This document shows positions 16,974 to 28,098 of a stretch of 64,000 nucleotides of DNA, in pieces. The translations under genes and the position numbers were made by a program. Every line of letters starts with the position of its first letter. The first letter of the stretch is position 1. Source of the DNA: Eledone cirrhosa (taxonomy: Eukaryota); assembly GCA_964016885.1 (NCBI GenBank), contig OZ024740.1, forward strand, positions 42,036,001-42,100,000, written 5' to 3'. The notes below the pieces were generated by a model. That model was not told where the DNA came from, searched no databases, and was given only the letters and a program-made list of their open reading frames with translations.

Positions 16974-17332
16974 TTAGAAAGTGAGGTTTTTTTTACAAAA
17001 TGAAAAATAACCGAGGTGTCCTACACGAGTGGAAGTATAAAGAAAAAGGGATGAAATCGAAAATGCAACTGAAGTCTTATTTTTTAAAAATATATATATT
17101 TATTTGGTTCCTTTACCGGTTTCGCAGTTCTTCTGCTTTTCAATAAGGTGAGTTGAGATGGAGGGTCTGGGGCTTTTCTCACATCTGATGTGAGAAAAAC
17201 CTCAGACCCTCTATCTCAACTCACCGTTTGAAAAGCAGAAGAACTGCGAACCGGTAAAGGAACCAAAATAGATATATATATTTTTAAAAAATAAGACTTC
17301 AGTTGCATTTTCGATTCATCCCTTTTTCTTTA
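16974..17332. mobile_element. Fold-back pLTR element (symmetry centre ~17186) with variant HHR in each arm
   Basis: ~150 bp inverted arms in (TA)n; family recurs at 13292, 25975 and 27811. Confidence 0.8.
17110..17148 (-). ncRNA. Variant minimal hammerhead (core UUGAAAA)
   Basis: cctt(a)-TTGAAAA-gcag.aagaa.ctgc-GAAA-ccgg-ta-aagg; further copies at 17224-17260 (+), 26084-26121 (+) and 27948-27985 (-). Confidence 0.7.
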
Positions 17333-20300
17333 TATATATATATATATATATATGTATATGTATATATATATGTATATATATATATATGTTTATGTATATG
17401 ATATATATATATGTATATATATATATGGTATATATATGTATATATATATATGTATATATATATATATATATATACATATAGTTATATATATATATATATT
17501 CATATATATATATATATATATATATATATACATATATATATATATATATATATATATATATATGTATATATATATATGTATATATATATGTATATATATA
17601 TGTATATATATATATGTATATATATATATGTATATATATATATATGTATATATATATGTATATATATATATGTATATATATATATATGTATATATATATA
17701 TATATATATACATATACATATGTATATATATATATGTATATATATATATATATGTATATATATATATATATATACATATACATATGTATATATATATGTC
17801 TATATATATATATGTATATATATATTGCCAAATATACATATATATATATATATACATATATATATATTATACATATATATATATATATACATATATATAT
17901 ATATATTATACATATATATATATATATACATATATATACATATAATATATATATACATATATATATATATATATATATATATACATATATATATATACAT
18001 ATATATATATATATATATATATACATATATATATATATACATATATATATATATATATATATATATATACATATATATATATACATATATATATATATAC
18101 ATATATATACATATATATATATATATACATATATACATATATATATATATACATATATATATATATACATATATATATATATACATATATACATATATAT
18201 ATATATATATATATATATACATACATATATATACATACATATATACATATATATATATATATATACATATATATATATATATATATATATATATATATAT
18301 TATATATATATATATACATATATATATATACATATATACATTTATATATATATATACATATATATATACACACATATATATATATACATATATATATATA
18401 CACATATATATATATATATATACATATATAAATATATATATACATATATATATATACATATACACACACACACACACACATATATATATATATATATATA
18501 TATATATATATATATATATATATATATGCATATACATACATACATACATATATATATATATATACATATACACACATATATATATATATATATATATATA
18601 TATATATATATATGCATATACATACATATATATATATAAATATATATATATATATATATATATATATAAATATATATATATACATATATAAATATATATA
18701 TATATATATACATATATATATATATATACATATATATATATATATATATATATACATATATATATATATATACATATATAGATATATATATATATATACA
18801 TATATATATACATACATATATATATATATACATATATATATATATATATATACATATATATATACATATATATATATATACATATATATATATATATATA
18901 TATATATATATACATATATATATATATATATATATACATATAAATATACATATATTTATATATATATACATATATATATATATATATATATACATATAAA
19001 TATACATATATATATATATATATATACATATATATATAACATATATATATATTATACATATATATATATATATATATATATATACATATATATACATATA
19101 TATATATACATATATATATATATATATATATATATACATATATATATACATATATATATATATATACATATATACATATATATATATATATATACATATA
19201 TATATATATACATATATATATATATACATATATATATATATACATATATATATATATATATATACATATATACATATACATATATATATATATATATATA
19301 TATATATATACATATATACATATATATATATATATATATATACATATATACATATATATATATATACATATATACATATATATATTTATATACATATATA
19401 CATATATATATATATATATACATATATACATATATATATTTATATACATATATATATACATACATATATATATATATACATATATATATATATATATATA
19501 CATATATATATACATATATATATATATACATATATATATATATATATATATATATATATACATATATATATATATATATATATACATATAAATATACATA
19601 TATATATATATATATATACATATATATATATATATATATACATATAAATATACATATATATATATATATATATATACATATATATATATACATATATATA
19701 TATATATACATATATATATATATATACATATATATACATATATATATATACATATATATATATATATATATATATACATATATATATATATATACATATA
19801 TATATACATATATACATATATATATACATATATATATATATATATATATACATATATACATATATATATACATATATATATATATATATATATATATATA
19901 CATATATACATATATATATATATATATATATACATATATATATATATATATACATATCTATATATATATATATATATATATACATATATATATACATATA
20001 TATACATATATATATATATATATATATACATATATATATATATATATACATATCTATATATATATATATATATATACATATATATACATATATATACATA
20101 TATATATATATATATATATATACATATACATATATATACATATATATACATATATACATACATATATATACATATATACATATATATATATACATATATA
20201 TATATATATACATATATATACATATATATATATATACATATATATATATATATACATATATATATATATACATATATATATATATACATATATATATATA

Positions 20301-20487
20301 TATATATATATATATATTATACATATATATATATATATATATATATACATATATATATATATATATACATATATATATATATATATACATATATATATAT
20401 ATATATATATATACATATATATATATATATATATACATATATAAATATATATATATACATATATATATATATATATATATATATATA
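17333..20487. repeat. ~3.1 kb degenerate (TA)n array
   Basis: TA runs interrupted by TG and then by CA. Confidence 0.97.
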
Positions 20488-20737
20488 GCGGCGATGAATT
20501 AGTTTTGCGAGGTTTTTTATATGAAATCGTGTGTCGAAACAGATATTGTTATATTTGGGGAGGGTCATATTTGCGTAATATTGCCAGAATTAATAACAGA
20601 ACACACTCACTGTTTGGTTGGTTTTCGCTTCTCGCTGTCTTTTATATATATATATCTGCGATCTAACTTACTCGGTCCTCAATGTTGCCATTGACTGACC
20701 GGCGGTCAAAAATAATACAGATACAATATAGACAAAC

Positions 20738-20808
20738 ACATATATATATAGTTTACATAATTTACATAAATCTTTCGTTGCACATCTGCAACATCGTCAG
20801 TGGTGTTA
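20738..20808 (-). ncRNA. Hammerhead-like motif in pLTR
   Basis: CTGACGA-t-gttgca.gatg.tgcaac-GAAA, long stem III, CUA triplet; stem I poorly paired (TA run follows the triplet). Confidence 0.55.
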
Positions 20809-21072
20809 TATTCATTGTTCCTCCTGTTGTGTTGTATGTCTACGCCATTTTTTTTGTTCAGTCTGTCTATATATTTATTTATTTATTTGCTTGTTTGTTT
20901 ATCTTATTTTATTTTGTCTTCTTTGCGCATGCGTTTGCGTGTGTGTATAGTGTTATGTGTGATGTGTGACTAGTGTGTATAGTGTTGTGTCTGCTGGGTG
21001 ACTAGTGTGTGTTTATGTGCTTGTGTATGTATTTATTTATCTTATTTTATTTAATTTAATTTACTTATTTAT

Positions 21073-26195: not shown

Positions 26196-26875
26196 ATATA
26201 TATATATATATATATATATATATATATATATATAATATATATATATATATATGTATATATATGTTGTGTGTGTGTGTGCCCGTGAAGTATGTAAGATGTA
26301 CTTAACTTCTAATGTAGGTGTAATACGGCTGATTTCTTCCAGAGAGAGAATGAAAACGGAACCAAGTGCTAGACTGCTGCTTTATTTGTCGACAACCAAA
26401 TTCTGAGGGAGTTGAACACTTGAAATCAGAGCGTCGTGTACTGGAACAACACACCGAGATATTGTTGCTTCGTCATCCTATATATATATATATATATATA
26501 TATGAAAAGATTCAGGACACCACATATATGTGTGCGTGTGTGTGTGTGAAGATGGGAATATATATATACATGTTATCTTTTCTTTCTAATATTAATGATT
26601 TTAACTCTTTCTATACAGAAACTAGTTTCCGGACAAAACAAGTGGTAGTAAGTTAGATAGCAACATTGGTGAGGGGTTAATTTCTAAGATTTATAAAAGT
26701 TTTCCAAGTATATATATATATTATCACCATTGCTCCTTGTAATCGTGATCTCTGAAGCATAACATTCTTTTCACTCCCGATTCTCTACATGATGTCTAGG
26801 ACACTGACAACAGTTATGTATCTTGCTAAATGTTATGAAGACTTGGATTTTAATCACCTGTTTAGAAATTCCCTA

Positions 26876-26922
26876 TGCTCCGATGATTCCAAACATCCCT
26901 CTGGAAGAAACAATTGTCAGCA
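26876..26922 (+). ncRNA. Minimal hammerhead (core CCGAUGA) in pLTR remnant ~26720-26966
   Basis: tgct-CCGATGA-ttcca...tggaa-GAAA-caattg-tc-agca, followed by aataaa; GUC triplet. Confidence 0.7.
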
Positions 26923-27010
26923 AATAAATGTATTAAATTAAGATTTGATTGTTTTAACACTTGTAATATATATATATATATATATATATATATATATATA
27001 TATATATATC

Positions 27011-27798
27011 CAGGGTGCGGACGATATTTGAGGACAGATTTATGTTTAAAAAACGCTTAGATAATAGCAACATTCATCCTAAGGCCTTGTGGAAAAAAGT
27101 GAGGAGGCATCACATATCCTTCATTGCTAACAACACCCAAAACCATGACACATGCAGGAAATTTTGTGTGCATTACTCTTGGAACCTCAGAAGGGTTTGC
27201 ACATAGCCACCTGTCATTTCTTCTGTTAGTTTTATGGTCCTGGTAAAAGTTTTTCTCATCTGAGTAAAACCAAATCACATCATCTTCTGATGGATTTTTA
27301 AGTTTGTTTAAAAGTCTTTTGGATCTGATTAAACGCTTTTCTTTTCTTTTTTCTGACATGAATTGACCTCTCCTCATCACGTAACATTTGTATCTGATGT
27401 CTTCATGCACAACATTTCTGATTGTTTTTCTGACACACCAACATTTTTTGCAACTGACCTCATTGATTTTCCTCTGTCATCAATGTTTTGCTTAACTTCC
27501 TGAATAAATTCAGGTGTCCTGATAGAATCAGAGAGTTTGGAATGTTTTGATACAGGTAATATGCTTCCATCTTTCTCTAACTCACACCGAATCTTGTGGA
27601 CAAAAAATCTTGCAACTTTCAGAAAACGAGAAATTTCTAAATCCTCATGCTTCGCTTTCAAAGCCTCAGCATGCCTTTTCATTTCATTAGTAAGCATAGT
27701 TATTTTCATTGTTATTTTCTGAAATGGAAGTTTAATAAAAATTAGTCATATAAAATAATGACTAAAAATATATGTGTCCTCAAATACCGTTCGCACCA
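27011..27798 (-). mobile_element. Internally deleted Tc1/mariner (maT/DD37D-like) DNA transposon
   Basis: Imperfect ~28 bp TIRs (cagggtgcggacgatatttgaggaca / tgtcctcaaataccgttcgcacca); frameshifted transposase with WFYSDEKNF...TKFPACVMVLGVVSNEG..MPPHFF. Confidence 0.85.
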
Positions 27799-27810
27799 TA
27801 TATATATATA

Positions 27811-28098
27811 TTAGAAAGTGTTTTTTTTTTTACAAAGTGAAAAATAACCGAGGTGTTCTACACGAGTGAAAGTATAAAGAAAAATAGATGAAATCGAAAA
27901 TGCAACTGGAGTCTTATTTTTTAAAAAATATATATATTTATTTGGTTCCTTTACCGGTTTCACAGTTCTTCTGCTTTTCAAAAGTAGAGTTGAGATGGAG
28001 GGTCTGTGGTTTTTCTCACATGTGAACCAAATAAATATATATATTTAAAAAAAATAAGACTCCAGTTGCATTTTCGATTTCATCTTTTTTTCTTTATA
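27811..28098. mobile_element. Inverted pLTR mini-element of the 16974 family
   Basis: Long minus arm with HHR (27948-27985) and short plus arm from ~28024. Confidence 0.78.

What the first reader, a model, noticed from the sequence alone, without database searches (positions are those of the whole stretch)
17110..27985. Second U3-A8 family: 38-nt minimal hammerhead with UUGAAAA core
Seen: four copies (17110-, 17224+, 26084+, 27948-), each with private changes, give the consensus cctt-UUGAAAA-gcag.aagaa.ctgc-GAAA-ccgg-UA-aagg. All four have U3 and A8, so this is the family state rather than decay. Established: the 3-8 pair is needed in the active HHR fold and rare natural covariants exist. Inference: a high-copy animal PLE family using the U-A covariant with a dimer-type ACCGGU stem III, which would be invisible to standard motif searches.
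Basis: partly seen in the sequence, partly recalled or inferred. Interest (0 to 1): 0.75.

Follow-up and report, generated by a model that had tools for sequence, protein, structure and literature searches.

The report
Penelope hammerhead with U-A core pair
These are four damaged end-stubs of a young Penelope-type jumping gene with over 12,000 copies, whose terminal repeat carries a tiny hammerhead ribozyme motif with an already published U-A core swap; it likely cuts RNA only weakly and in pairs, and most copies appear to come from uncut RNA.

Summary
All four copies exist; none is intact. U3-A8 is the family state: 11,625 of 12,495 exact genome matches read UUGAAAA, and none reads C3-G8. The parent is a young 4.69-kb Neptune/Nematis-type Penelope-like element (ORF1, then RT + GIY-YIG in the -1 frame) with the motif in both pLTRs. 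In 28 related loci scanned without constraint on positions 3 and 8, 27 form a Watson-Crick pair (21 C-G, 4 U-A). A sister family keeps U3-A8 with a different stem II, so the motif is likely under selection. U3-A8 minimal hammerheads in PLEs were published in 2014 (PMC4209133), and this scan has noted them in at least 13 genomes. The window copies are head-to-head stubs, not tandem dimers. Of 129 arms, 69 start 63-73 nt upstream of the cut, 30 nt behind a TATA box; 39 of 40 inverted pairs join one long and one short arm. There is no clear pile-up at the cut site. Cleavage is untested. New member of a known kind.

The parts
16968..17187 (-). Long arm of PLE stub 1: pLTR from the putative transcription start (-73) to the distal 3' end (+147, relative to the predicted cut), flanked by (TA)n
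   Evidence: blastn to the parent pLTR, 98%; forms a -237 kcal/mol fold-back with the short arm
17110..17148 (-). Hammerhead copy 1, U3-A8, with an extra A between stem I and the core; predicted cut between 17114 and 17113
17187..17334 (+). Short arm of PLE stub 1 (-71 to +79)
17224..17260 (+). Hammerhead copy 2, U3-A8, with a stem I mismatch and one A of GAAA missing
25974..26054 (-). Remnant of the long arm of stub 2 (tail only; approximate ends)
   Evidence: read by eye against the parent tail
26055..26196 (+). Short arm of stub 2 (-63 to +79)
26084..26121 (+). Hammerhead copy 3, U3-A8, with A9U and a stem I mismatch; predicted cut between 26117 and 26118
27805..28024 (-). Long arm of stub 3 (-73 to +147)
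27948..27985 (-). Hammerhead copy 4, U3-A8, second subfamily (3-bp stem I), G-U at 10.1-11.1; the only copy that passes a relaxed descriptor
28024..28098 (+). Short arm of stub 3, starting about 3 nt downstream of the predicted cut, so it lacks the hammerhead

Best explanation
The motif is the pLTR hammerhead of a young, high-copy Penelope-like retrotransposon (RT + GIY-YIG), with U3-A8 fixed in the family; it likely self-cleaves after GUA only weakly, as a predicted two-copy ribozyme, and the four window copies are damaged stubs likely copied from uncut RNA. SHOWN: parent anatomy (4,689-nt unit; motif about 1.05 kb after the ORF2 stop, cut site 168 nt before the ORF1 AUG); U3-A8 as family state; 3-8 covariation across families; 5' ends piled at -73 to -63, 30 nt behind TATAAAA; 3' ends at +79 or +147; inverted pairs made of one long and one short arm. 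INFERRED: a Pol II promoter in the pLTR starts RNA at about -72. The element's RT-endonuclease nicks (TA)n on both strands and starts cDNA at two internal RNA sites, one per strand. cDNAs that run off the RNA 5' end are joined head-to-head and give the stubs. A monomer cannot form stem III (1 bp), so two ACCGGU palindromes must pair, either between the two pLTRs of a read-through transcript 4.7 kb apart or between two RNAs held by a protein dimer. Cleavage would be occasional and not needed for copying.
For: Family state: 11,625 of 12,495 read TTGAAAA; 51 have C3, all C3-A8; 23 have G8; only 2 looser-matching copies are C3-G8. Parent: many open 775-aa frames, Pfam GIY-YIG above cut-off and RVT_1 at E 1.3e-6, just under cut-off, motif on both sides of the ORFs in L045, L048 and L050. 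Selection: positions 3 and 8 left free gave C-G 21, U-A 4, A-U 1, G-C 1, U-U 1 of 28 loci with a sense hit among 87 scanned; U-A occurs at several separate places on the RT tree. Sister family L204 (58% protein identity, clade support 100/99) keeps U3-A8 and ACCGGU with stem II changed to GAUGG/CCAUC. The nearest outside relatives, L115 and L191, have C3-G8 with the same no-bulge, 6-nt-palindrome layout. Folding: stem II probability 0.49-0.91 in four contexts, monomer stem III 0.00, nested dimer fold -18.9 kcal/mol. Ends. Literature: U3-A8 ribozymes are active in vitro (PMC3088659, passage). For the anole Poseidon element, the hammerhead needs the element's protein, uncut RNA is the main template, RT starts at two internal sites and both strands are nicked (PMC11167929).
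Against: No cleavage data and no RNA data for this family. There is no clear excess of 5' ends at the cut: 105 pattern hits at 0 (21 of 28 inspected lack the motif upstream), 62 at +2 (19 of 19) and 56 at -3 (11 of 18), against 16,942 tail copies. Nearly half of tail-anchored copies (37 of 79) belong to a subfamily with a mismatch in stem I, and two other U3-A8 families have only 2 bp of stem I. Stem I probability falls to 0.03-0.20 in longer RNA contexts. S. mansoni minimal hammerheads cleaved only poorly in vitro (PMC4209133). The transcription start is inferred from DNA ends and a TATA box only.
Confidence: 0.82

Rival explanations
1. The hammerhead is a vestigial passenger: real in ancestry but no longer catalytic in this family, carried because it lies between the promoter and the RT start sites.
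For: About 1% or fewer of copies begin at the cut. A stem I-mismatched subfamily amplified to about half of copies. Hammerhead mutants did not impair insertion in vitro in another PLE (PMC11167929).
Against: The whole core, the U3-A8 pair and the palindrome are kept between this family and L204 while stem II, loop II and the flanks differ completely. The 3-8 pair is Watson-Crick in 27 of 28 related loci.
Confidence: 0.1
2. Cleavage is an obligatory replication step: both pLTR hammerheads cut, the 4,689-nt unit is circularised, and rolling reverse transcription gives the partial tandems.
For: Full-length copies carry at least 350 nt of pLTR upstream of the putative start site, which a transcript starting at -72 cannot template. 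A ligated circle would restore the motif and leave no scar. The model is proposed in PMC4209133.
Against: Read-through of tandem copies explains the same structures. Most copies start at -72 and cross the cut site intact. Uncut RNA is the main template in vitro for Poseidon. It is partly compatible with the best explanation, for full-length copies only.
Confidence: 0.15
3. U3-A8 is decay of a C3-G8 core, or the motif is a chance look-alike in a MITE-like fold-back element.
For: Each window copy is damaged; the stubs look like terminal inverted repeats.
Against: 0 C3-G8 among 12,495 exact copies; 0 of 5,000 shuffles; the arms run on into the 3' UTR and the GIY-YIG ORF; the arms are asymmetric, long plus short.
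Confidence: 0.02

Closest known systems
Minimal type I hammerheads of metazoan PLEs, including the U3-A8 variant of Schistosoma mansoni Cercyon (Cervera and De la Pena 2014, PMC4209133; parts 1-2 of 4 read)
   Same: In pLTRs; short helix I, no loop-loop contact, G10.1-C11.1, palindromic helix III (reported there for shrimp, rotifer and mosquito PLEs), U3-A8, mostly single or opposite-strand copies.
   Different: Helix II is 4 bp rather than 7-8; no extra nucleotide between 9 and 10.1; about ten times more copies than the roughly 1,300 U3-A8 hits reported; a different PLE family.
Poseidon PAc of Anolis carolinensis (Frangieh et al. 2024, PMC11167929; passages and second half of the main text read)
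   Same: Two RT start sites that define a tail, AT-rich targets, hammerhead upstream of those sites, copies made from uncut RNA.
   Different: C3-G8 core overlapping the ORF start; tail 30-40 nt. Here the tail is about 68 nt, the motif is wholly in the UTR, and there are two ORFs.
Neptune/Nematis EN+ PLEs (Craig et al. 2021, PMC8557442; introduction and passages read, figure images not seen)
   Same: RT, CX4CxxC linker, C-terminal GIY-YIG with CxxC; (TA)n targets; inverted 5' copies; tail at one end only.
   Different: Separate ORF1 overlapping ORF2 in the -1 frame at U_UUU_UUA. The abstract describes one ORF for EN+ PLEs; the Fig. 1 legend allows an ORF1 with a frameshift without naming the clade in the text I saw.
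Animal non-LTR retrozymes (PMC7761336, passages; bioRxiv 10.64898/2026.07.22.740005, abstract)
   Same: Type I hammerhead in a short non-coding repeat linked to PLE pLTRs.
   Different: No head-to-tail monomers; the stubs are inverted by-products of an autonomous element.

Membership tests
Minimal type I hammerhead (PLE type) | Core U4 G5 A6, A9, G12 A13 A14, A15.1-U16.1, H17 | tested here: met
   Family form has all; each position at least 96% conserved in 79 tail-anchored copies. Two of the four window copies have a core lesion.
Minimal type I hammerhead (PLE type) | Watson-Crick 3-8 pair | tested here: met
   U3 79 of 79, A8 79 of 79; 27 of 28 related loci Watson-Crick
Minimal type I hammerhead (PLE type) | Helix II with G10.1-C11.1 and short helix I | tested here: met
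   4 bp each; helix I 3 bp plus a mismatch in 37 of 79 copies
Minimal type I hammerhead (PLE type) | Palindromic 15-16 segment for dimer helix III | tested here: met
   ACCGGU duplex -8.3 kcal/mol; monomer stem III probability 0.00
Minimal type I hammerhead (PLE type) | Extra nucleotide between 9 and 10.1 (usual in min-HHRs, not universal) | tested here: not met
   Absent here and in the nearest relatives L115, L119 and L191; present in distant loci
Minimal type I hammerhead (PLE type) | Self-cleavage at NUH as a dimer | not testable with these tools
Minimal type I hammerhead (PLE type) | Genomic trace of cleavage (5' ends at the cut) | tested here: inconclusive
   About 79 junctions at 0, 62 at +2 and 34 at -3 after scaling by the inspected fraction
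EN+ Penelope-like element | RT plus C-terminal GIY-YIG | tested here: met
   Pfam PF01541 above cut-off; PF00078 E 1.3e-6, 0.9 bit below cut-off; 718 homologues at E <= 1e-50
EN+ Penelope-like element | pLTR partial tandems, inverted 5' copy, one-sided tail | tested here: met
Neptune/Nematis clade | CX2-5CxxC linker before the endonuclease; (TA)n targets | tested here: met
   CX4CxxC in ORF2; TA flanks
Neptune/Nematis clade | RT phylogeny with named Neptune or Nematis references | not tested
   No named reference sequences were held; the tree has unnamed loci only
Non-LTR retrozyme | Head-to-tail monomers of a few hundred nt delimited by hammerheads | tested here: not met
   0 direct neighbours within 2 kb among the first 100 listed hits
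MITE / TIR DNA transposon | Fixed, symmetric terminal inverted repeats | tested here: not met
   Arms are long plus short in 39 of 40 pairs, with variable centres, and continue into an RT element

The most novel reading that the evidence does not exclude
The hammerhead is a concentration-gated off switch. It lies 38-72 nt inside a TATA-driven transcript and 168 nt before the ORF1 AUG, so cleavage would strip the cap. It can cut only when two element RNAs meet on a dimeric RT-endonuclease, the same dimer that primes one long and one short cDNA on opposite strands. The element would thus limit its own translation, and repeated C-G to U-A swaps would tune the rate so that about 99% of templates escape.
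Probability: 0.12. Interest if true: 0.7.

Novelty: new member of a known kind. Interest (0 to 1): 0.3.

Why it matters
The role of hammerheads in Penelope-like elements is still open. This family is a convenient test system: young, with many intact parents, a 38-nt motif, a natural sister family with a different stem II, and thousands of stubs that record where the RNA starts and where reverse transcription begins. The 39-of-40 long-plus-short rule is a genomic counterpart of the two-site, two-strand priming seen in vitro for another PLE. The U3-A8 swap itself adds a member, not a concept. Practically, these palindromes should be annotated as PLE stubs, not as MITEs or microRNAs.

Tried and rejected
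Rfam: no hammerhead hit at E <= 10 on an intact pLTR, and none among the 150 of 569 rows listed for the window (the rest not shown). A strict descriptor found no intact copy in the window. Search for a C3-G8 sister subfamily: 2 scattered copies only; rejected. Cut-site pile-up test (lead from earlier AI notes): no clear peak. In one search, 17 of 129 ends fall at 0 to +23 against 6 at -60 to -1, but that stretch is an AT-rich palindrome that favours fold-back, so I do not count it as evidence. ORF1: no Pfam family; no Atlas result was obtained. A stimulatory pseudoknot after the slippery site was not found cleanly. The monomer active-fold energy was an invalid structure and is not used. Lunse et al. 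2017 on PLE hammerhead dimers was not held; I saw only its title in a reference list. It, and the unread supplements and figures of PMC4209133 and PMC8557442, may already show this variant or the two-ORF layout. Paper searches: 'U3-A8' with hammerhead and self-cleav returned only PMC4209133; C3U/G8A returned none; frameshift searches returned no paper describing a slippery site in EN+ PLEs beyond the Craig Fig. 1 legend.
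Full report
Observation. The four motifs are at 17110-17148 (-), 17224-17260 (+), 26084-26121 (+) and 27948-27985 (-). All have U3 and A8, but each departs from the family form: an inserted A; a stem I mismatch plus a lost A of GAAA; A9U plus a stem I mismatch; a G-U in stem II with a 3-bp stem I. A strict scan found none intact and a relaxed scan passed only the fourth. They lie in three stubs of 220-370 nt inside (TA)n tracts. Stub 1 folds back on itself at -237 kcal/mol, so in a host transcript its two motifs would be locked in a duplex.

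Family state. The window's genome (3.0 Gb) has 12,495 exact matches to the 22-mer covering stem II to stem III, against 0 for the reversed control. Of these, 11,625 are preceded by TTGAAAA, 51 have C3 and all of those keep A8, and 23 have G8; none is C3-G8. A looser pattern found 2 scattered C3-G8 copies. In 79 copies picked by their downstream tail, not by the motif, U3 and A8 were each present in 79 of 79; 37 of 79 belong to a subfamily with a mismatch at the fourth pair of stem I. The descriptor hits once in the 1,221-nt non-coding region of a parent and in 0 of 5,000 shuffles.

Parent. Upstream of longer copies lies a GIY-YIG tail. A search with it scored 150 of 10,390 candidates, many in open 775-aa frames. 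In 16 loci chosen for a long open frame, L045, L048 and L050 show the motif on both sides of two ORFs; the unit is 4,689 nt. ORF2 has RVT_1 (E 1.3e-6, just below cut-off) and GIY-YIG (above cut-off), and a CX4CxxC linker, the Neptune/Nematis mark described in PMC8557442 (introduction and passages). ORF1, about 400 aa, has no Pfam family and overlaps ORF2 in the -1 frame at U_UUU_UUA. ORF1 homologues lie at related RT loci, and L111, L112 and L122 have U_UUU_UUA and L113 and L191 U_UUU_UUG at the same junction. Frameshifting is inferred; the scan has noted it before, including in this genome.

Is it a hammerhead under selection? I scanned 87 related PLE loci from metagenome and genome contigs with positions 3 and 8 left free. 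Of 28 loci with a sense hit, 21 were C-G, 4 U-A, 1 A-U, 1 G-C and 1 U-U (a weak long-loop hit); two antisense-only hits were left out of the count. On the RT tree (29 rows; L119 had too short an RT segment) U-A appears at several separate places. This family groups (100/99) with sister family L204, which has 58% protein identity and keeps U3-A8 and ACCGGU while stem II is GAUGG/CCAUC. The nearest outside relatives, L115 and L191, are C3-G8 with the same no-bulge, 6-nt-palindrome layout. A broad U3-A8 pattern has 20,418 hits in this genome against 40 for the control, including at least three other families. Against: the sister family and another have only 2 bp of stem I, and stem I probability is 0.55-0.58 in a short context but 0.03-0.20 in longer ones.

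What the copy ends record. Positions are relative to the predicted cut. I mapped 129 arms from 120 loci plus the window; 42 loci were picked by the motif and the rest by the tail, and identical 3' ends were collapsed. 5' ends: 69 at -73 to -63, 37 further upstream or at -61, 6 at -60 to -1, and 17 at 0 to +23. TATAAAA starts at -102, 30 nt before the A of a CA at -72, which fits a Pol II start (textbook spacing, my own knowledge). 3' ends: 66 at +147 and 49 at +79, both at TA microhomology. Of 40 head-to-head pairs, 39 join one long and one short arm, 1 has an intermediate arm, and none has two of a kind (binomial p 1.8e-12). This matches the one-sided tail in PMC8557442 (Fig. 2 legend) and the two internal RT start sites with nicking of both strands shown for anole Poseidon (PMC11167929).

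Does it cut in vivo? Junction patterns gave 105 hits at 0, 62 at +2 and 56 at -3. Of those inspected, 21 of 28, 19 of 19 and 11 of 18 lacked the motif upstream, and some are internal deletions. That is about 79, 62 and 34: no sharp peak, and about 1% or less of 16,942 tail copies. So templates are mostly uncut, as reported for Poseidon, where the hammerhead needed the element's protein and was dispensable for insertion. Among the first 100 listed hits there were no direct neighbours within 2 kb, so a dimer must form across 4.7 kb or in trans. The nested dimer fold scores -18.9 kcal/mol and the monomer stem III has probability 0.00.

Mechanism. Shown: anatomy, family state, covariation and end positions. 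Inferred: transcription from about -72; two-strand, two-site priming in (TA)n; joining of run-off cDNAs into head-to-head stubs; weak dimer-dependent, probably protein-assisted cleavage after GUA. My odds: pLTR hammerhead homologue of an EN+ PLE 0.97; catalytically competent in some context about 0.75. Rivals are a vestigial passenger (0.1), obligatory circle formation (0.15, partly compatible) and decay or MITE (0.02).

Comparison and novelty. U3-A8 is known in nature and active in vitro (PMC3088659, passages), and known in PLE minimal hammerheads, with about 1,300 hits in S. mansoni (PMC4209133, parts 1-2 of 4). Rfam misses the motif, but a published descriptor exists. Earlier AI notes list 30 findings with these words in at least 13 genomes; none matched this stub by sequence. 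Unread supplements, figure images and Lunse et al. 2017 (title only) may cover more. Verdict: a new member of a known kind, interest 0.3. The bold reading, a dimer-gated cap-removal switch, is not excluded (0.12).

Noticed in passing
L045:3853-7319 (G000:C2:151606000-151615500); relatives L111, L112, L113, L122, L191: The parent PLE has a separate ORF1 overlapping RT-GIY-YIG in the -1 frame, with U_UUU_UUA or U_UUU_UUG at the junction in five relatives; a likely programmed frameshift. Noted before by this scan.
   Followed up: partly
L209 (G000:C1:6519945-6521556, -): Six copies of a 316-bp tandem unit with a U3-A8 hammerhead. By eye it has a 4-bp stem III and a long interrupted stem I, so it is retrozyme-like and possibly active as a monomer.
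   Followed up: partly
L198-L203 and L204-L208 (G000:C1): Two more U3-A8 families with ACCGGU stem III and only 2 bp of stem I; one (L204) is a sister PLE at 58% protein identity, the other has no ORF link in the six loci fetched.
   Followed up: partly
L156:1969 and L161:117: PLE loci whose hammerhead motifs have A3-U8 and G3-C8, the other two Watson-Crick options; single loci, unverified.
   Followed up: no
window 338-373 (+): Candidate C3-G8 minimal hammerhead with an ACGU palindrome, from another family.
   Followed up: no
window 8930-10576 (+), 13418-14155 (-), 14777-15739 (+): Fragments of other Penelope-like ORFs, by eye Naiad- or Hydra-like; no Pfam hit for the two tested.
   Followed up: no
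window 20640-25130: Another broken PLE (RT at 21918-23048, -, RVT_1 E 3e-5) with an inverted pLTR copy at about 24428-25130. Its 3' end has a hairpin near 20670-20705 but no hammerhead by my descriptor.
   Followed up: partly
window 34592-47566 (+): Tandem 5.9-kb LINE-like elements (endonuclease-RT by eye), two near-identical units plus a diverged fragment.
   Followed up: no
L079-L108 (G000): A low-copy family (82 pattern hits in all) with a C3-G8 core and ACCGGU stem III but a poorly formed stem II.
   Followed up: no
L191-L197: Animal-type PLE contigs inside bacterial MAG records, probably host DNA carried into the bins.
   Followed up: no
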